A DNA stretch of 63,674 bases, filler included, from Blastocystis sp. subtype 4 (taxonomy: Eukaryota): assembly GCF_000743755.1 (NCBI RefSeq). It is 3 parts of 3 records of this genome, joined end to end, with 100 filler letters (N's around TTAATTAATTAA, not from the genome) between each part and the next. Parts side by side here need not be neighbours in the genome. Positions count along the whole stretch, not along the records: positions 47,313 to 63,674 come from NW_014569306.1; 2 more parts are not named here. The stretch is one strand, 5' to 3'. The notes under the pieces were generated by a model. The model worked only from the letters and a program-made list of their open reading frames with translations. It had not been told where the DNA came from and searched no databases. The translations under genes and the position numbers were made by a program. This document shows, piece by piece, positions 1,557-62,640 of the stretch (position 1 is its first letter; each line of letters begins with the position of its first letter).

Positions 1557-1645
1557 CCGAGCTTAGCTCAGTTGGTAGAGCGTTAGACTGTAGTGGCTGC
1601 TCCGCAGCAATCTAAGGGTCGCTGGTTCGATTCCTGCAGCTCGGA
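1557..1645 (+). tRNA. tRNA-Tyr(GTA) with 16-nt intron (1594-1609)
   Basis: Acceptor stem CCGAGCT/AGCTCGG, D arm GCTC/GAGC, anticodon stem TTAGA/TCTAA with GTA at 1590-1592, T loop GGTTCGATT, followed by a T6 Pol III terminator. 73 nt after splicing. Confidence 0.97.
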
Positions 1646-49736: not shown

Positions 49737-52714
49737 ATGGAAATCCAAACTCAGTCTATCCACTCTGAGGGATATTGTGGAATCATCCCTGCAACCGAAT
49801 CATCTTCAGTTTTCACCGTTGGAGGTGATGCACGAGTTCGAGAGGATTTTGAAATTGAATTTGTAGATTGTGGAAAATACTCTAGTAAGTGGAAAGTTTG
49901 AGAGCAAAGGAAGGTCCGATCTGACAAATGTGCCTGTTTCTTGTGTTGCAAGCAAAGCAAAAAAGATGTGTTATGTCGCTTGTGACGACAATGTGATTCG
50001 GTCCTATCACTTAGACTCTTTCGAGTTTGACAATGTCATTTACAAAACTACCCAACCTATCAATTGTTTAGCTATCAACCATGATTCTACATACTTGTAG
50101 GGCTGGATAAGGATTTGGATTGTAGGGCGATTGGAAGCAAGGATTCTGTAATCGAAGTTATTGATATTAGAGAGAGGGAGAATGTATTCTCGTTGGTTGG
50201 ACATCAGGGAGAAGTCACATTTGTATCTTTTGATCCCAAAGGAGAGTATCTAAGTAGTGTTAGCGTTGATGGAACACTCCGAATTTGGAATCTAACAAAG
50301 AAAAGTTGTGAGAGCTCAAAACCTGGACTCAGCAAGGAATTGTGTACCTCGTTGAATTGCAGTTGGTCAGAATCAGGAGATCTTCTTGTCATTCCATATG
50401 GAAACGAGATCCAATTCATTCAAGTCAGTTTTGTTGATCGCAGTAACTCATAGAGAGGAACATGGATATCTCTGATGGATATTCCGACTGAAGAATCAAA
50501 GGATGCTCTCATGGTTGTGGTTTCCCCAAATGGACAGTATGTTGCTTACATCGTTCCACTAGATGGAGTGAACACAGTATGAGTATGAATGGTTTTTAAT
50601 TACAGATTATTGTGGTAGACAAGGGAACTAAAGCTGTTGTTGGTAAGGTCGAATCAGAAGCAACAGGATTCAATACAATGGTCTGGAGAGATGGTTAGTT
50701 TCTTAACATACGGTGATTTGTAGATGGACGGTCTCTTCTGGTCCTTGATCGTGACGTGAAACTAACACAGTATGGCGGTGTAATTCCTGATGCGATGATG
50801 AGTGGAACACAAACTGTTGTTGTTACGCCTCAGGAGACCGAACCGAAGCTCCAGGAAGCAAATGTGGTGATTGAACAAGAGAGTGATGACGAGATGCCTG
50901 TGATCCGAAAGGTACGTAGAGAACGTGTGGAAGACACTGAGGAGAACCAACCAGCACAGAGCGAGGAGGTTGGAATTAGTACAGACGATGCTCTGGTGAA
51001 CTATACAAGCGAGCCTACAATGACTCTGAATGTATGGTTATCATGGAGTGAGTAATACCTAGACATCTCTCCATGATATGTTCATGCCAGCAGCTACTGA
51101 GACGTCTCAAGAGCGTTGTTTTCTGGCTTGGAATGAAGTTGGGTTGATAGTGAAACGATTGGTTGATGATGGAAGTGCTTTGGAAGTTGTGTTTTCAGAT
51201 TCTCATCGCAAGCGACTTCTCTTCAAGGAAGATTCTGATGTGGTTGTAGCCTCATTGTCTTCAAATGGAGGAGTATTTGGAGGAGTTGTAGAAGATGAGA
51301 ATGGAAAGAATTTTGGGTTAACATGAATTCAGATTCTCATTCATAGAACAGTGTTCTATCGAGCATTCAATTCATGGGCAAGTCATGCTTATTGGAGAGC
51401 TGAGCTACCGATTGGAGAGTTACCAGATTTGGTTGCCTGCACAGATAGTATGGTGTTCGTGTATACATCAAAAGGTTATTTGCGTTGTTGGAGTGTAAGT
51501 GGAGTTCAAAATAGTATATTAACTCCATGTGGTCATGTTGTGACGATGGTTGGAAATGACAGAACGTTATGTGTTGTCTATGAAGATTCCTATCCATTAG
51601 CAAGTAAATAATTCTTATTGGTATTTGAACACAGATACACACAATTTAAAAATGATTGTTTACTGTACAGCTCCATTCCGTAGGTTACATCAGGGTCCTC
51701 TTCCTTTATCTCATCATTCAACACTTCAATGGATTGGATTCACGAAGGAAGGGTATGTTGCTTCATATGATAGTCAGTGTGTGATTCGAGTATTCTGTGG
51801 AGTGATTGTTCCTACCGAGGAGGTATTGTATGATGAAATGGAATGGATTGTGCTGATGAATGTGAAGTTCTATCTAAAAGAGAAACAAGAACCTGGAGAT
51901 GCTCTTCCATACTGTTGGTTGGTTGCTCTATCACTTCACACTATCAAATATGTTCTCTTACCATCAGCAGCATCCATTCCTCCAACTCTTCCTCGACCAA
52001 TGTTGTCTGTCCTGGATGTGAAGATTCCACTATGTGTAATTGAAGTGAATGAAACTTCACTTGTAGAGCAAGGACAATGGAATGGTTGAATTCGAGAACA
52101 ATCTACTTCTACGTACTTATGACCTTTCTGCTTCTTCACAATCATCTCTTTGTGTAAGTGATCAACATCGAGAGCATATTGAATTTGATAAGTTTTTGTT
52201 ACGGCAGATCAATGTAGAGATTGGAAACAATCAGTTATTACGAGCGGAATACCTCTGCTCATTGATTCATTCAGTTGCAGCTCTGAAGAAGGCGGCTATT
52301 GTGAGTGAATAAGAATGAGATGAGATATAGCTAGCACAGAAGGCAAATGCAAGTGGATTAGTATCCCAAATTGAAGCGTTGATGGATAAAAAGGATTCTT
52401 TGGCGTATTCAAGAGAAGATAGAGAGGAACCTGTGAAGGGATTCGAAGATCGATTGAATTCTGTTGCTGTGAGTAACCGAAAGTGAGAAATGGGTTAGAG
52501 AATAAAGAATAGACGAGATGGAGATGTTTCAATTGACGTCATATCGAAACGAGTGAGTGTTGATGAAGAGAATGTTCAGAGACCCGTCAATGTGTTCAAG
52601 AAACCTGTTCATGAGAGTCCACAAAAGTCGTTGATTGGTCAGTTACGATCTGTTGTTGTGGGATATTCGACGGGTGGTGAATTATAGAGTCCTGTCAAGA
52701 AAGGTAGAATGTAG
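49737..52714 (+). CDS. WDHD1: Replisome adaptor WDHD1/AND-1/Ctf4
   Basis: N-terminal WD40 (GHQGEV…FDPKGEYLSSVSVDGTLRIWNL); SepB region FMPAAT…FLAWNEVG, FNSWASHAYW, TLQWIGFTKEG, PPTLPRP. Confidence 0.9.
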
Positions 52715-52935
52715 TTTGTATTTTGTTTTGTTTCGTTGGATGAAACTATCTATACTCTCATCAAGCATTCTATTGAGTTATTCGGTATTAGGTAGAAATG
52801 GGGCATTTGTGTCCCAAAGGCGCTTCCCTCTTCTTAATAATCTCTCCAAATCGAAATCATTTTACTCTAGAATAGTTGTATCGAGTCGGAAAGAAGTTTT
52901 ATTTCCAATTCTTCATTGATATAATAGAAACGATA

Positions 52936-55167
<2,232 letters not shown>

Positions 55168-55230
55168 GACTTTTCGCTTTTCTGATTGTTTGATAAGTGT
55201 ACTGAGTTGATAATAAACAAGAAATGATAT

Positions 55231-58200
55231 TCATTCTTCATTAGGATCATAATCCTCATCCATCTCATCCTTCTTAGGATCATAATGAATTCCACGTTCC
55301 TTTAGCATGTTTCGTAACTTTCCACGCATCTCACGAGGTGTATCACGTCTATATACTCATTCGTCTTATCAATATCTACTCCATAGCACATCCAATAGCA
55401 CTATTATGTTGCATCAAAGGAATAATAGCTGAAAGAATACAATTGAACACATTTGGGAACAGATTCTCTTCAGCTGCTAACAAGGTTTTCATTCGATATC
55501 GTTCCTTCGGTCTACATCTCATTCATCTCTCCATTCATCACCCTTCAAAACAAGCAGGACAATTTTCATCAATGATTGGTAGATTCATTGTCTTTGCAAA
55601 CTCTCTGAGTTGTTTCTCTCGAATATACACAAATGGACGAATCACTCGGATATCTTGTTCCTTGTTGATATAACAAGCTTTCATAGTACGCAAGACACCA
55701 TTATGGAACACCGACATTAGGAATGATTCAGCCAAGTCATCCAAATGTTGGGCCAGAACCTATCTCTCAGTTCTTAGTAATAGACTCACAAGCACATTAT
55801 ATCCTTCACGACGCATGGCACTATACAAGATTCCTCGCTTCATTCGAGAACACCAACTACAAATTGAACCGTTCTGAAGCTTCTTCTTAGCCAATGCAAT
55901 TACAGCACGAGACTCATAGAAATATTTCACACCCAGTGTCTTACAGTAATCACGAAGAGGACTATAATCAAGGAATCATTGTACAGGTACGATGGATCGA
56001 ATCCTGTTGTTTGAGGATCTACTGTAACACAAGCCAATTCAAACTTAATTGGAGATCTACGTTGGAGTTGAAGCAAACAATGTAGCATTGTCAACGAGTC
56101 TTTTCCTCCTGAAAGACCTAACATCACCTTATCACCTTCTTTGATCATATCGTAGTGTCCAACGGCCTGACCTAAAATATGATTTAATTAGAGTTAAAAT
56201 ACCCATTAGTTTCATTAGTCGAGTAGGCACTTCAGGGAACAGCTCCTTGTGTTTCTTCATATACTTCACTCGTTCCTTAAATTCCATTCCAGGAACGATT
56301 GCTGTGAACTCCAAAGTACCATCAACGCCTGTATGATATTTAAATTCTACTCCAGGTTCCTGAGCAATACTCACAACAGAGAGAGGAACCACTTCTTTTC
56401 CAGTACTAGAAAGCATACAGCTTTCTCGACGCTGTTTCTTGTCACTGATCTTGACAGTGAAAGCATTGGTTGAAGGAGCTGAAGTATTGGGACCAAGAAC
56501 ATTGGTTGGAGTACCAGTGGAAGCATCGTGATTAGGAGTAGTTGAAACTTCACTCGATGCACGCTTCAAAGATTTCAAATCATGATGAGATTCAGTTGAT
56601 ACAGACTGATCACCTCGCTGTTTCACATGAATGAGAATTGATGGTAAGATTGATTCATTCTTAGAAGGAGTATAATTTGACTTGAAATCCTGATAGGCTT
56701 CAATTCGAGTTACGTACCAACGATACTGTGTGACCAGTACTGACTGTTCATTCTTGACATTGGCTGCTGAATATTCAGAAACCACATACGTAGGAGCTAG
56801 CATCGATTTTTCTGTTATTGCCAATGTAGCTTTGGCTTGCTCATAATAACTCTCAAAGAGAGAAGAGAGATAAGATGAATCAATCCTGAATTCATTCACT
56901 TCATGTGCCTTCACTGGATATGACATATGACCATCAGGGAAACTATTAGTAAATACAGTCCAGTAATCCAACCTCACATCATTCAACCAACGACGGAAGG
57001 GCTTCTTATTCTTCATACTCTTATGACGCCATTCTCCGGTATCTTCAAAGAATACATACTCTGGTAAGAACTTCCAACCATCTTCACTCACAAATACCAA
57101 AGCTCTCTGAATGAACTTCACTTCTTCAGGAGTCATTACATACGATAAACCTATAGAATGGTGAGATATGATTATCATGAATCACTAAACATACTGATGC
57201 GAGTATATCCAGGACGGAAAATCTCATTCTTATCCAACAGAATGGCATCCACATCTTTCACCTTCTTTCCATCAATCCCAAGCAGACTAAGTATCAGATA
57301 TGAAGGGAATCGATACCGCATCGAATATGGGCCAGCACACATACATCCAGAACGCGTCTGAATCCCAAATAGATCACTTAACAACATTGATACAAAATTC
57401 CAGTGCAAATAACGACTATTTATGTCATTCAAGATCTAGTTCATACCCATTGTGTTTGATTAGAATCGAAAAAACAGAAGCTTTTGGGCAATCCGTATCA
57501 TCACCCAAAATCACGATATTAGGATGCTGGCGCAACACCTCCATAGTCTGTTGATAGTACTCCTGTTCACGCTGGCGAATCCAATCCCAACCAAGATGGT
57601 TGTGGAGATGAAGAGTAAGGCCACAGCGAATGGCTCCAATGATATTGGGAGTTCCTCCTTCTTCTCGCTCTGTTAGCACCTGTGTGTAGCGATGGAGACC
57701 CTCACTCACATAGAAAATTGTTCCTCCTCCAGGGATACTGGGAACCTCATTGAGAAGGAGTTTCTTTTTCACAAGAAGTAGGCCTGGGGAACCGACTCCA
57801 CCTACCATCTTGTGTGGTGAAAAGAAGCAAGCATCACAGTAATCGAGAGGATTAACTGTAGTGTTGTTCATGAGGGGTGCTTCATGAGACCCAGCTGTAG
57901 CACAGTCCCAACAAATCAGTGCTCCTTCTTCGTGGACCAAACAATTGATAGGAGACATAGGAGTGATGAGACCAGTCACATTGCTGACTCGGTTAAGAGA
58001 AACAATTCGTAGGGGACTAGATATAAGAGATACCTCACATACGCACCGAGACTTAAATTGTTGAAGACGTGTCCGAAGTTCGTTTTGATCCAAACTACCA
58101 TCCTTTGCTACACCAATTTGAACAAAATCAACATCAGCTTCTCTCCAGGGAAGGAGATTACTGTGATGCTCAAAAGGACCCACAAATACGATAGGACGAT

Positions 58201-58840
58201 TTGAATCGTTCGAGACAGGAGTCACAATACGACCTGTTGATGAACTGATGTCTGTAGACCATGAACTCGCATCTCCATCGGTATGTGTACGTTGGTGAAG
58301 ACGAAGGTCACCAGAGTCATTAAAACTAAGAGGACAGCCAGGGAAGGTACATTGTAACAACTACAATTAAGAGTCAGAAGAATAATCCCACAGGCTTCGA
58401 TAGACCATAGGGCGTTTTCTTACGTTCCAAACCAAGAATACGAACAAATGTATTGATTGCACCAGTACTTCCAGTTCCAGCAAAGAGAATAACATCATTG
58501 TCAGTACAGTGGTACTAGAAATGAGGTCTATTGAGTCCATGAATACAGTATCACGAATGATCCCACGAGCTTCTTCTCTAAAGCAACTAGTCTGAATTCC
58601 AACATACGATGAAGAGGTATGGGTGTTCGAATACACAGGAAGAACTTCTTTCGTGATGTAGTCCTCAATGAACTTCACTGCTTTTCCAGAAGCAGCATAA
58701 TCAGCATACGTCTGTTTGTGAGGTTCGAAAGGACCATCGATCAATGCGTCATTTCCAACAAGATTCTCAGCAATTGACTTGGCAAGAACCTCTTTGGACT
58801 CAATTTGCTTCTCAACGTATTGCTGAGTCGATTCTTCCAT
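55231..58840 (-). CDS. Fusion: PLP-dependent class-V aminotransferase (cysteine-desulfurase-like, with inserted C2H2 finger) + TtcA-family tRNA thiotransferase
   Basis: YADYAASG, YSNTHT, EHHSNLLPW, FSPHK, EEGGTP, TRSGCMCAG; then SGGKDS PP-loop, CSWCSRMKRG, QHLDD, IRPFVY, CPAC. All joins are in frame with GT-AG introns. Confidence 0.9.
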
Positions 58841-59201
58841 CGAACCGAAGTTGTAGTTCAACAAACACGAAAACTTGATAATACGAAAATGCTCGGGGTT
58901 TGACAAAAACCCTTCACTTTGATAGTAAGTCAAGAACAACAAAGAAACAAAGATAGATTGTACATTTCAATAGAAAACTCGTGGACATTCAAGTCCACCC
59001 ATAGTCGTTGAAATGACCAAAACCTTAGTACTTTGCCAATTGTATCTCCATTGACCAAAATCATAGAGATACTTGCGGGTTTTCAGTTGAATGAATCGAA
59101 GCTAGGATTGTGTGTTTGGAGGACCTGCCAAAAGAACAAAAAAACCGCATTCATCGTTATTTTGTCTGGCAAAGAAACACATCAATTCCTATCTATTAAA
59201 G

Positions 59202-60086
59202 ATGCCTAGTATTGCTGAATGGGATTCTATTTACAACAAAACTCTCGAGATGATTAGTGTACGAAATAGACACCTTCTGAGTAATTGGAGTAGAGAGTGA
59301 AGGGAGCACTCGATCCTCATTCTGGAACGAAAGATGTGATAATATCAGATCTAAGTTGATTAATAGTTTGCAAAGGTTCAAACTCAACTCGATGTTGTAG
59401 AGAATAACATTCGGAAGATGCAGGCTGACTTAACAAGTATGTCACAAGATGCTGCAAAGTATAAACTGTATGCTTGTTTGCGAAGACTCATGCTTAGAAC
59501 GGATCGCGAAATAAAGCGCCGTGCGAACATGATTGACGGATTACTTCGAGAAAAGGTTTGATTAGTTGCGATGGTTCATAACTAGAAAGATTGTGATACG
59601 AAATTTGCTTCTTCAGGAGGTAATCTAAAGATGAAGTGACGATTGACAAACAGATATGATTTGTAGGAATCAATTAGTCCATGCAAATGTGGATCCGGAG
59701 AGTCTAACAAAGCAATCGGATGCTGATCTTCATCACATGCAGGAGCAGATCTTTGCTAGTATTATTATGTTTGATCTTTAAGGTATAGATCAGGAGCAAG
59801 CTCTCGTGGACATCAGCGACACATTAGGTCGTCTTCATGAGATTGGATCTGCTATCGGAACTGAAGCGGATCTTCATGTGGTAACCGGTATCAGAGAGAG
59901 TTCAATGAATAGAAACTGCTAGATGAGATGGATAGTAATGTGGATGTTGCTAAGAACCGTTTAATGCAAGAAAGCAAACGAGCAAAGAAAGTTAGCAAAA
60001 GTTCAGGAATGTGTAGATGGTATTGTGTGATTATTCTGCTGCTAATTCTTCTCATATATCAGATCGTATTTTATTTTAAGAACTAA
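59202..60086 (+). CDS. Qc-SNARE syntaxin (Syx6/8-like)
   Basis: QEQALVDISDTLGRLHEIGSAIGTEADLH…LLDEMD SNARE coil and C-terminal TM WYCVIILLLILLIYQIVFYF. Confidence 0.85.
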
Positions 60087-60422
60087 GTTTTTATTTGTTT
60101 CTATATACTTTTATCCATGATTTGTTTGGATAATGATACACTTCTCACATTACCGTTTACTTCTCTTAATTACTTCTTAACCAATATGCAAAATAACTTC
60201 AAATAGAAGAAGGGGCCAATAGGAAGACGAAATGAATATAATACCGTTATCGCGTTTATGTCCAATTGTTAGCGGAAATCATTCACAGGTTTGGGACCCC
60301 TGGACCGAGTTAGCTCTTATCTTATTATCAATAAAGCCCCAAAACAAGTCACTATACTTGCAGTCTTCATAAATATCAAGGACTCTAATAACTGCATAGT
60401 TTGACTCATAATTCCATTAAGA

Positions 60423-61646
60423 ATGAGTGTGGCTCCAACTTCTGGTATACAACACAAAGTCATGTCTGGGAAGAAGAGAATCATGGTATGTGGAGGTGCT
60501 GGATTTATCGGTTGTCATCTCTGCAAACGTTTGTTGGAGATGGTACATTCTTTTCACATATTTTGTGATTTTGTAGGGACATGAAGTCATTTGCGTTGAC
60601 AATCTCCTGACGGGATCCAAGGAGAACATCAAGCATCTTATTGGAAATGTATATGTCGTTGTTTTTGAACTTACAGATAGCCTAATTTCGATTTCGTTCT
60701 TCATGATATCCGTCAGCCGTTGTATGTGGAAGTTGATGAGATTTATAATTTGGCTTGTCCAGCTGCTCCTATTCATTATCAAGTAATTAATGGATGGAGT
60801 ATTGAGAGTAGACATACCCTATTAAGACATTTGAGTGTTCCGTTTTGGGCATTTTGAATCTGCTTCATCTTGCTAGGGATACTGGGTGCAGACTTCTTCA
60901 TGCTAGTACCAGTGAAGTTTATGGAGATCCCTCGGTTCATCCTCAAACAGGTACAGTTCTATTTCGTTTTTGATTTCAGAGGATTATCATGGAAATGTGA
61001 ATCCGATTGGACCTCGTTCTTGCTATGATGAGGGAAAACGTGCAGCTGAGTCAATTATGTTTGACTATTATCGTACATATAACCTTGATATTCGTGTTGT
61101 ACGTATTTTCAATACGTATGGACCTTACATGCATCCCTATGATGGTCGTGTTGTGACCAATTTCATTCGTCAGGCTCTTCGTGGCGAGGATATTACGATC
61201 TATGGAGATGGCAGCCAAACTCGCTCATTCCAATATGTGGATGATCTGATTGAAGTAGAATTCGAAGATAATATGATATGTAGGGAATGATCCGTATGAT
61301 GGAGAAGGATGATGTTACTGGACCTTTTAATTTGGGTAATCCTGTGGAATTCACTGTGAAAGAGCTTGCTGAGAAGGTAGTGAAAATGACAGGAAGCAAG
61401 AGCAAGATTGTGTATTTGGATCTTCCAAAGGATGACCCATGTAAGCGTAAACCTGATATTACTCGTGCTAGTAGAAGTTTGAGATACAAATGATGGATAG
61501 AGGAAGCTCTTGGCTGGGAGCCAAAGATTCAGTTAGATGAGGGTCTTGTAAAGGTGATCGAGTATATGAAGACAATTGATTGGAATAGCGTTCGTATGCC
61601 AAATCTTGTCAACAATATGGATACCATTATGAACCCTAAGGTTTAA
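60423..61646 (+). CDS. UXS1: UDP-glucuronate decarboxylase (UDP-xylose synthase)
   Basis: [54 protein letters not shown]. Confidence 0.95.
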
Positions 61647-61691
61647 GTCAGTCCCGTGATTCTTTGTTTGTTTCCCACCTTTTTTTTCCTC

Positions 61692-62640
61692 ATGAATCTG
61701 GCTTCGCAAGTCACTGTAATGGAGTGCAAATTGCTCTCTGCACAGGCTTTGATCGACGTCTTAAATGCCATGTCTTGTTCTCATCAACAACTCATGATTA
61801 GTTCAAGTGGAGACAAATCAGAACAAATCCGAATTGATATCAGTGATACTGGATTATCGTTTCATGTTACTGACAAGACAAAGACAATTCAACTCTCCAC
61901 TCATTTAGCAACATCTTTATTTGATGAATATCATATTGAAGGGCCTACAGACTCTGTTATGTGTAATTTGGAACCCTTATCGAAATGTGTATCCATTTTT
62001 GGTAACAGCAAACTGATGATGACGACACTTCAGATGATGTATTCTTCAGATGATCGGTGTATCAAACTTGTCCTTGATGAGAATGAGTCAGCATAGGTGC
62101 TTTCACTGAGTTGTAGAATGCACAGTGAATGCCAAATCCGAACTCTTCTTTCTGTAGACGATATTGCTGATTACTCGCCTCTCTTCACAGATGATCTCAC
62201 CGTATGTCTATAGTCCGTATATCACATAGCTCCTAGGCGCTATTATTGATCCTCCTGCGCTTCGGAGTGCTCTTTCCGAAGTGGACAACATGAAGAATGC
62301 ATCTGAAGTAGAGGTTGCTTGTCATCCTGATGGAGGGTTGTGTGTTTCCTGTACAGATGCTCTTGTGTCGTAGGGTTATGCAGGATGATTTCAACTAGAT
62401 ATGATGGATTCTTAGATAATGTTAGCTCGATTTTGGCTGAATTCTATTGTAAGGAAGAGAAGAGTTGGAAGTACAACAGACAGCATCTGCTGAGATGTGG
62501 AAAACCGTTATCTCTTGCTTTGAAGGTTTTTCTTCGTATCAACAATAATGGTATTATATGTATCCAACATTTATTAAACGATGATGCTGAGGTACAGTTA
62601 TTCATTGATTGTTTTCTCCATCCTTTGGAGACTGTATCAT
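61692..62640 (+). CDS. RAD1: Checkpoint clamp (9-1-1) subunit Rad1; stop probably completed by polyadenylation
   Basis: GLSFHV…LFDEY…CVSIFG, SECQIRT, KVFLRINNNGIICIQH…FIDCFLHP. In-frame T62640 + TTCT + TGTTTGTT. Confidence 0.85.

What the first reader, a model, noticed from the sequence alone, without database searches (positions are those of the whole stretch)
55231..58840. Self-contained sulfur-relay enzyme: cysteine-desulfurase-like domain fused to TtcA
Seen: one spliced frame carries a PLP lysine (SPHK), a candidate persulfide cysteine loop (RSGCMCAG), a long linker, then a TtcA-type PP-loop (SGGKDS) with both CxxC motifs (CSWC, CPAC). It lacks the terminal zinc fingers of Ncs6/TtuA. Established: bacterial TtcA makes 2-thiocytidine at tRNA position 32 using an Fe-S cluster and sulfur from IscS, and s2C32 is not an established eukaryotic cytosolic modification. 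Inference: a one-polypeptide RNA-thiolation system implying an uncharacterised eukaryotic thio-modification. Similar fusions may exist unstudied in other eukaryotes.
Basis: partly seen in the sequence, partly recalled or inferred. Interest (0 to 1): 0.85.

Follow-up and report, generated by a model that had tools for sequence, protein, structure and literature searches.

The report
Fused desulfurase-TtcA tRNA thiolation gene
A spliced gene of a gut protist (likely Blastocystis) joins a predicted sulfur-releasing enzyme to a predicted tRNA-thiolating enzyme in one protein that likely puts sulfur on tRNA cytidine 32; the same fusion is widespread in eukaryotes and was described in a 2026 sea-slug preprint, but its activity is still untested.

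Summary
The minus strand at 58840-55231 is one gene: 13 exons, 1076 aa. Spliced contigs of a second study bridge 11 of 12 introns, and one contig spans both domains. The N-terminal domain is a group II (SufS-like, not IscS-like) desulfurase homologue; its C460 aligns with catalytic C364 of SufS. The C-terminal domain scores as TtcA (200 bits for the closest full homologue; TilS 69, TtuA 46, NcsA 23) and keeps the three cluster cysteines. The fusion is not new: 117 of the 120 best long hits carry both domains, in oomycetes, choanoflagellates, animals, heteroloboseans and a cryptophyte. A September 2026 preprint reports s2C32 in Aplysia tRNA and describes this fusion. The scan found it before on other DNA (8 notes). 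Added here: the likely catalytic cysteine; a short proteobacterial TtcA subtype as nearest free relative, which stands in place of canonical TtcA (0 of 50 genomes hold both); and an uncontrolled model hinting that the domains dock. Best reading: self-fed tRNA s2C32 synthase (0.68). New member of a known, biochemically untested kind.

The parts
55231..58840 (-). Desulfurase-TtcA fusion gene, 13 exons, 1076 aa. Exons 58840-58547, 58514-58392, 58360-58047, 58016-57447, 57415-57317, 57286-57195, 57150-56973, 56942-56203, 56171-55991, 55961-55790, 55759-55542, 55511-55380, 55348-55231
   Evidence: One open frame, 12 GT-AG introns of 29-44 nt; 11 of 12 bridged by spliced contigs, the twelfth shown by contig ends and depth
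56935..58768 (-). Group II (SufS/CsdA-like) PLP cysteine-desulfurase-like domain, about aa 25-560
   Evidence: Pfam Aminotran_5 E 8.5e-26 for exon 4; best NCBIfam model sufS, below cut-off; 30% identity to E. coli SufS, no hit to IscS; model of homologue P0002 matches SufS structures, TM-score about 0.86 by target
58283..58351 (-). C2H2 zinc finger inserted in the desulfurase domain (aa 143-165); possible RNA-binding aid (inferred)
   Evidence: Pfam zf-C2H2 E 9.8e-5; both finger cysteines present in 32 of 112 aligned relatives
57809..57820 (-). SPHK motif, PLP lysine K313
   Evidence: Aligns with E. coli SufS K226; K in 112 of 112 aligned relatives
57331..57354 (-). Cysteine loop RSGCMCAG; C460 is the predicted persulfide cysteine, C458 an extra family-specific cysteine
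   Evidence: C460 aligns with SufS C364 and CsdA C358, C458 with SufS H362; both cysteines in 112 of 112
56943..56972 (-). In-frame 30-nt intron missed by reading the frame alone
   Evidence: Left out in the X6 contig at depth 692; GT-AG ends
56231..56934 (-). Helical extension of the desulfurase domain and a poorly conserved linker, about aa 560-795
   Evidence: Column conservation about 0.1, one short conserved patch 0.37; pLDDT under 50 for residues 723-849 of P0002
55403..56230 (-). TtcA-subfamily PP-loop domain, about aa 795-1030
   Evidence: Three window exon frames each best match NF007972 TtcA, E 1.4e-20, 6e-9, 1.8e-16; 33% identity over 254 columns to E. coli TtcA, E 1e-42, against TilS E 4e-7
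56095..56112 (-). PP-loop SGGKDS (ATP binding)
   Evidence: Sequence; present in 121 of 122 relatives checked
55850..55861 (-). CSWC, C898/C901, predicted [4Fe-4S] ligands
   Evidence: Align with E. coli TtcA C122/C125, shown essential in PMC4081106
55550..55561 (-). CPAC, C988/C991; C991 is the predicted third cluster ligand
   Evidence: Align with E. coli TtcA C210/C213; the second cysteine of this motif is the essential one in PMC4081106 (there numbered 219/222; the match of numbering is my inference)

Best explanation
This is one spliced, expressed gene whose protein likely works as a self-fed tRNA 2-thiocytidine (s2C32) synthase: its SufS-like half would strip sulfur from cysteine and its TtcA half would put it on cytidine 32. 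Shown: the single spliced frame, the two domains and the conserved catalytic residues. Inferred from homologues: PLP on K313 cleaves L-cysteine to alanine and leaves a persulfide on C460; the TtcA half binds a [4Fe-4S] cluster through C898, C901 and C991, leaving one iron free; ATP at the PP-loop activates C32; sulfur released from the persulfide by a reductant passes by way of the free iron to C2 of the base. More speculative: group II desulfurases have a short loop and need a dedicated acceptor, and the tethered TtcA half, docked on the desulfurase half, fills that role; C458 helps release the sulfur; the C2H2 finger helps hold tRNA. The acidic N-terminus shows no obvious mitochondrial presequence (by eye), so the cytosol or nucleus is the likely site.
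For: Single spliced frame. TtcA is the best family by a wide margin: P0002 200 bits against TilS 69, TtuA 46, NcsA 23; four further homologues 187-223 for three more listed with TtcA on top. Cluster cysteines kept in 109-111 of 112 relatives, K313/C458/C460 in 112 of 112. C460 equals SufS C364. The nearest free relatives (245-260 aa, 54-64% identity) are the only TtcA-like gene in 50 of 50 genomes tested, none with canonical TtcA, whereas 92 of 251 sampled genomes of the phylum have canonical TtcA: the subtype behaves as a TtcA replacement. E. coli TtcA needs cysteine, a desulfurase, ATP and DTT in vitro (PMC4081106); two relatives (P0009, P0012) add a thioredoxin-like domain. Aplysia has s2C32 in tRNA-Lys(UUU), and its TtcA-like blast hit is this fusion. 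The single-chain model of P0002 has pTM 0.76, above the 0.58-0.66 I estimate for an unplaced C-terminal domain.
Against: No activity has been measured for any fusion; the Aplysia link is co-occurrence only. Neither half reaches its NCBIfam cut-off (TtcA 200 of 272; sufS 122 of 475), and canonical TtcA sits on a very long branch (5.2 changes per column) from this subfamily. No free-standing member of the short subtype or of the desulfurase-like family was found characterised in the searches run. None of 80 bacterial loci has a desulfurase gene within the fetched flanks, and the close desulfurase-like family was not found with one query in 5 of 5 such genomes (only distant hits in 2), so the pairing has no bacterial precedent here. 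The linker is long and variable (211-507 aa between marker motifs in 95 rows); the preprint suggests it may be cleaved. The pTM argument has no controls, rests on a homologue (61% identical over aligned positions), and both enzyme types are dimers that were modelled as a monomer. The 50 genomes are related and many are incomplete.
Confidence: 0.68

Rival explanations
1. The TtcA half makes s2C32, but the two halves work largely apart: the desulfurase half serves as a general cytosolic sulfur source (cluster assembly or repair, other acceptors) or as a selenocysteine or C-S lyase, and the linker may be cut.
For: Long, variable, low-confidence linker; free-standing members of the same desulfurase family exist in bacteria and eukaryotes, some fused to unrelated domains such as cNMP-binding domains; free short TtcA works in bacteria with no adjacent desulfurase; the preprint raises cleavage.
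Against: Both halves are kept together in 117 of the 120 best long hits, the two domain trees show the same eukaryotic groups, fused N-domains stand apart from 26 of 27 free ones (97*), and pTM 0.76 points to a placed C-terminal domain.
Confidence: 0.16
2. The protein is a self-fed thiolase, but this divergent subfamily acts on another position or RNA (another tRNA pyrimidine, or a non-tRNA substrate), and Aplysia s2C32 has another source.
For: The subfamily is below the TtcA cut-off and only 33% identical to E. coli TtcA; Aplysia s2C32 is on tRNA-Lys(UUU), which is not among the E. coli targets listed in the preprint; an extra C2H2 finger could redirect binding.
Against: Strict mutual exclusion with canonical TtcA in the genomes tested; TtuA, NcsA and TilS models score far lower; the fusion was the TtcA hit reported in the one eukaryote with s2C32.
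Confidence: 0.13
3. Two neighbouring genes, or a decayed gene, misread as one fusion.
For: Genes in this window are tightly packed; one intron is not bridged by a listed contig; the tool warns that a contig across two genes does not by itself show one transcript.
Against: The spliced contig crosses the whole linker in one open frame without a stop; complete transcript-derived ORFs of relatives hold both domains; all catalytic residues are intact.
Confidence: 0.02

Closest known systems
Aplysia californica 'IscS-TtcA' fusion LOC101861551, 1177 aa (bioRxiv 10.64898/2026.09.27.754811)
   Same: Same domain order (CsdA-type desulfurase, long variable linker, TtcA-like domain), PLP lysine, paired loop cysteines two apart, SGGKDS, CSxC and CPAC motifs (section 20).
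   Different: A protist, not an animal; carries a C2H2 finger that named animal relatives lack; s2C not measured here. The preprint did not identify the catalytic cysteine because it compared with IscS; comparison with SufS points to the second loop cysteine. I did not hold the Aplysia sequence, so no direct alignment was made.
E. coli TtcA (tRNA cytosine(32) 2-sulfurtransferase; PMC4081106)
   Same: PP-loop, both CxxC motifs, three cluster cysteines; best HMM family.
   Different: 33% identity, below the family cut-off; free-standing and fed by IscS in trans; has a C-terminal tail that the short subtype lacks.
Short (245-260 aa) proteobacterial TtcA-like subtype (Thermithiobacillus, Acidithiobacillus, Thiothrix, Thiomicrorhabdus and others)
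   Same: 54-64% identity to the fusion's TtcA domain (P0002), same CPAC motif.
   Different: Free-standing, no desulfurase neighbour in 80 loci; annotated by homology only.
Group II cysteine desulfurases SufS/CsdA
   Same: Fold, PLP lysine, EHH histidine, catalytic-cysteine position.
   Different: 30% identity; CxC loop in place of HHC; insertions and a long C-terminal extension; no SufE/SufU partner known; far below cut-offs.
Other desulfurase-acceptor fusions: Pseudorhodoferax CD-rhodanese and plant ABA3 (PMC8931425, passages); archaeal Aminotran_5 plus PAPS_reduct clusters (score under 0.9, a lead only)
   Same: A desulfurase joined to its sulfur user in one chain.
   Different: Different acceptor domains and products. 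That ABA3 carries its own acceptor domain, and that the archaeal pair resembles DndA-DndC, is recalled and comes from no call.

Membership tests
Eukaryotic desulfurase-TtcA fusion (Aplysia type) | One transcript and frame with an N-terminal class V PLP domain and a C-terminal TtcA-like domain | tested here: met
Eukaryotic desulfurase-TtcA fusion (Aplysia type) | PLP lysine, paired loop cysteines, SGGKDS, CSxC and CPAC | tested here: met
   compared with the preprint's text
Eukaryotic desulfurase-TtcA fusion (Aplysia type) | Groups with other eukaryotic fusions, apart from bacterial free forms | tested here: met
   All 41 fusion rows lie on one side of a 98* branch from 42 bacterial rows if the long TilS outgroup is ignored (quick tree); includes mollusc Mercenaria; root unusable
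TtcA (NF007972 equivalog) | Score above the curated cut-off of 272 bits | tested here: not met
   Full-length homologues score 187-223; the window's three exon frames score 74, 36 and 60 separately
TtcA (NF007972 equivalog) | PP-loop and three cluster cysteines at the TtcA positions | tested here: met
TtcA (NF007972 equivalog) | Binds a [4Fe-4S] cluster and forms s2C32 in tRNA | not testable with these tools
   needs biochemistry
Ncs6/CTU1, NcsA, TtuA | Best profile match, and zinc fingers flanking the PP-loop domain | tested here: not met
   TtuA 46 and NcsA 23 bits against TtcA 200; no flanking cysteine clusters in the sequence. No Ncs6 or TtuA row was in the tree; the flanking-finger criterion is recalled
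TilS | TilS_N score above 93.6 bits | tested here: not met
   61-69 bits in four full-length homologues; E 4e-7 to E. coli TilS
Group II cysteine desulfurase (SufS/CsdA) | Fold type, PLP lysine and catalytic cysteine in a short loop at the SufS C364 position | tested here: met
   group definition from PMC8931425
Group II cysteine desulfurase (SufS/CsdA) | Score above the SufS or CsdA cut-offs | tested here: not met
   sufS model 120-134 of 475 bits
Group II cysteine desulfurase (SufS/CsdA) | Cysteine to alanine turnover with a protein persulfide | not testable with these tools
   needs an enzyme assay
Group I desulfurase (IscS/NFS1) | Long flexible loop with the SSGSAC motif | tested here: not met
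   No blastp hit to E. coli IscS at E 1; IscS models 18-28 bits

The most novel reading that the evidence does not exclude
The fusion is an ancient, single-origin eukaryotic enzyme that makes s2C32 in the cytosol with its own sulfur supply, handing sulfur from C460 directly to a docked TtcA domain that stands in for SufE. s2C32 would then be a common tRNA mark across protists and invertebrates, made without mitochondrial NFS1-derived sulfur for the transfer step, and its TtcA half would come from a distinct short TtcA subtype now typical of sulfur-oxidising proteobacteria.
Probability: 0.35. Interest if true: 0.75.

Novelty: new member of a known kind. Interest (0 to 1): 0.4.

Why it matters
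s2C32 was held to be prokaryotic until a 2026 preprint found it in one sea slug and proposed this fusion as the enzyme. A spliced, expressed copy in a culturable gut protist, with intact catalytic residues and relatives in several eukaryotic supergroups, predicts that the mark is widespread and gives a simple system to test it. The cysteine assignment (C460) and the short bacterial subtype give concrete mutants and comparators. The architecture itself is already in print and was seen repeatedly by this scan, which limits surprise.

Tried and rejected
No whole genome is held for the window, so this organism's Ncs6, NFS1, Suf genes and tRNA set could not be examined. The joint fold of the two domains with controls was not available: no verdict on contact. 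Bacterial operon origin: no desulfurase hit within the flanks of 80 loci. Rooting the TtcA tree on TilS failed (long branches attach beside the window's row); the careful tree did not finish and the quick tree is cited. Lateral transfer from choanoflagellate-type copies: the window's row joins the finger-bearing group at 90 (unstarred), but placement with stramenopiles is not rejected (p-AU 0.29), so no claim is made. Runs X14 and X20 laid nothing on 55800-56300; X7 and most X12/X15 pieces were short and low in depth; X12 confirmed intron 1 and X15 intron 3; small-share runs were not used for habitat. Rfam found only two tRNAs in the window, nothing beside the gene. A recalled parallel with cysteine pairs in the ABA3 loop was not confirmed: those terms had 0 hits in the paper read. 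The look-up of earlier findings by sequence gave nothing. ESM Atlas hits were all under 0.9 and add only that eukaryotic clusters with both domains exist. Absence from yeast, mammals or land plants was not tested: only the best 120 of 926 hits were listed.

Full report
Observation. Three-frame translation of the minus strand gave a chain of exons separated by 29-44 nt GT-AG introns. My first model had 11 introns and 1086 aa. Laying four runs on 55000-59000 showed that contigs of run X6 (depth 480-720; study P3, not the study flagged as possible source; RNA status is the tool's guess) skip ten of those introns exactly, plus one I had missed (56943-56972, in frame). The corrected model has 13 exons and 1076 aa with one terminal stop. 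Intron 55962-55990 is not bridged by a listed contig, but the high-depth contigs end at 55961 and start at 55991, and only a contig of depth 19.8 retains it. DNA run X1 keeps the sequence of 55800-56300 unskipped (it may be the source of the window). One spliced contig of 1528 nt covers 55991-57684: cysteine loop, linker and PP-loop exon in one open frame. X12 and X15 (another study) each confirm one intron at low depth. The fusion is therefore real and expressed.

Organism. No genome is held. The window has 39.2% G+C, introns of about 30 nt, and 24 copies of TGTTTGTT against 4.0 expected (0 of 100 shuffles reach it), one per 2,650 bases. PMC5608401 (passages) gives one per 2,751 bases, 39.6% G+C and 33-nt mean introns for Blastocystis ST4. 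The best holders of the DNA are mouse gut metagenomes. Blastocystis, ST4-like, is an inference from these features.

N-terminal half. Exon 4 matches Pfam Aminotran_5. For the closest full-length homologue P0002 (656 identities over 1070 aligned positions) the best solved relatives are SufS proteins, and its AlphaFold model matches SufS structures. The window protein aligns with E. coli SufS (30%, E 4e-24) and CsdA, and gives no hit to IscS. K313 equals SufS K226, H204 equals H123, C460 equals C364, and C458 replaces H362; PDB titles name C364A as a SufS mutant. K313, C458 and C460 are present in 112 of 112 aligned relatives (rows chosen by me for being near full length). NCBIfam scores stay far below the SufS and CsdA cut-offs, so this is a separate, uncharacterised desulfurase-like family, which also has free-standing members in bacteria and eukaryotes. 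A C2H2 finger is inserted at aa 143-165; its cysteines occur in 32 of 112 relatives, including Salpingoeca but not the named oomycetes or animals.

C-terminal half. Each of three exon frames best matches NCBIfam TtcA; four full-length homologues score 187-223 bits (cut-off 272), P0002 giving 200 against TilS 69, TtuA 46 and NcsA 23. C898, C901, C988 and C991 align with E. coli C122, C125, C210 and C213. PMC4081106 (passages) reports three essential cysteines, 122, 125 and the second of the last CxxC (numbered 222 there), a [4Fe-4S] cluster, and a need for cysteine, IscS, ATP and DTT. The nearest free-standing relatives are 245-260 aa proteins at 54-64% identity (best 120 of 5189 listed; some longer hits there are probably truncated fusions). 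A genome scan (16 of 64 parts read; best 80 of 343 relatives kept) placed them in gamma- and betaproteobacteria and Acidithiobacillia; many named ones are sulfur oxidisers (my knowledge of the genera). In 50 of 50 such genomes (the first 50 of 80 loci) this was the only match at E 1e-25 and none passed the canonical cut-off. In 251 genomes sampled from the phylum, 92 had canonical TtcA, 3 had the short type and none had both. These genomes are related and often incomplete, so the nominal probability overstates the case, but the pattern fits a replacement of TtcA rather than a second function. None of the 80 loci had a desulfurase within up to 8 kb (many flanks are shorter).

Spread and history. 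The TtcA-domain search among long proteins gave 926 hits; 117 of the best 120 carry both Pfam domains, with names from oomycetes, Salpingoeca, sponge, corals, echinoderms, amphioxus, a clam, Percolomonas, Acrasis and Guillardia; cluster members add MAST-4 stramenopiles. The profile search over 50% clusters gave 1354 proteins at E 1e-30 (these include single-domain relatives). In quick trees, fused TtcA domains stand apart from 42 bacterial rows (98*), fused desulfurase domains apart from 26 of 27 free ones (97*; the Capitella row falls among fusions), and a joint tree of 37 rows recovers stramenopile (100*), animal-containing (100*), choanoflagellate-type (99*) and heterolobosean-containing (99*) groups. 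This fits one old fusion passed on vertically, but the trees are unrooted in practice and animals and choanoflagellate-type rows do not group, so a single origin is not proven. The window's own place is unresolved.

Do the halves touch? The P0002 model has mean pLDDT 78 and pTM 0.76, with residues 723-849 disordered. A rough calculation gives 0.58-0.66 if the C-terminal domain were unplaced and 0.74-0.80 if placed. This hints at docking but has no controls, assumes error values, and ignores that both enzyme types are dimers. The controlled test was not available.

Literature. Searches (listings and abstract starts only for papers not named here) returned one paper that describes the fusion: bioRxiv 10.64898/2026.09.27.754811 (abstract, passages, sections 20 and 21 read). 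It reports s2C32 in Aplysia tRNA-Lys(UUU) as the first eukaryotic s2C, identifies a 1177-aa CsdA-TtcA fusion, finds it in 28 molluscs and mentions birds and insects, leaves the catalytic cysteine open among three candidates, and performs no enzyme test. Its supplements 6 and 7 (alignment, species list) were not seen and may bear on the cysteine assignment and the range. PMC8931425 (passages) supplies the group I/II distinction and a precedent for a fused acceptor activating a desulfurase. The library lacks most subscription papers. The scan's own notes list 8 earlier findings of this fusion in other genomes with the same reading; I had reached the preprint before opening them.

Verdict. Real, expressed, and most likely a self-fed tRNA s2C32 synthase (0.68). 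It works like TtcA plus SufS, yet is a formal member of neither equivalog; it is a member of the recently described eukaryotic fusion family. New member of a known kind; interest 0.4, because the family's biochemistry is open and this copy makes it testable, while the architecture is already in print.

Noticed in passing
window 1557-1645 (+): tRNA gene with a 16-nt intron. ARAGORN calls the anticodon unclear or Asp with an odd intron; read with an intron after position 37 it is tRNA-Tyr(GUA) and has C at 32.
   Followed up: partly
window 58860-58867 (-): A TGTTTGTT motif lies 20 nt upstream of the start codon on the same strand, yet an X6 contig runs on unbroken to 59000 and beyond; either a long 5' leader or an unrecognised short upstream transcript. 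Rfam finds nothing there.
   Followed up: partly
L002-L081: A short TtcA-like subtype, common in sulfur-oxidising proteobacteria, scores below the TtcA cut-off and excludes canonical TtcA in the genomes tested; its sulfur source and activity look unstudied.
   Followed up: partly
proteins P0009, P0012 (MAST-4 cluster): Three-part fusions: desulfurase, TtcA and a C-terminal thioredoxin-like domain, a possible built-in reductant.
   Followed up: partly
proteins P0401, P0402, P0417, P0431: The same desulfurase-like domain fused behind cyclic-nucleotide-binding domains (P0401 also with GST-C and hemerythrin) and without TtcA.
   Followed up: no
window about 56200-56420 (-): About 70 residues just before the TtcA domain are strongly alike between the window and P0002 but not conserved across the family; a lineage-specific module, low confidence in the model.
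   Followed up: no
window 50085-55167 (+) and 59200-62100 (+): Neighbours are ordinary housekeeping genes: WDHD1/Mcl1-like, PIF1 helicase, an NAD-dependent epimerase and Rad1-like, and a likely SNARE (by eye). No sulfur or tRNA gene cluster.
   Followed up: partly
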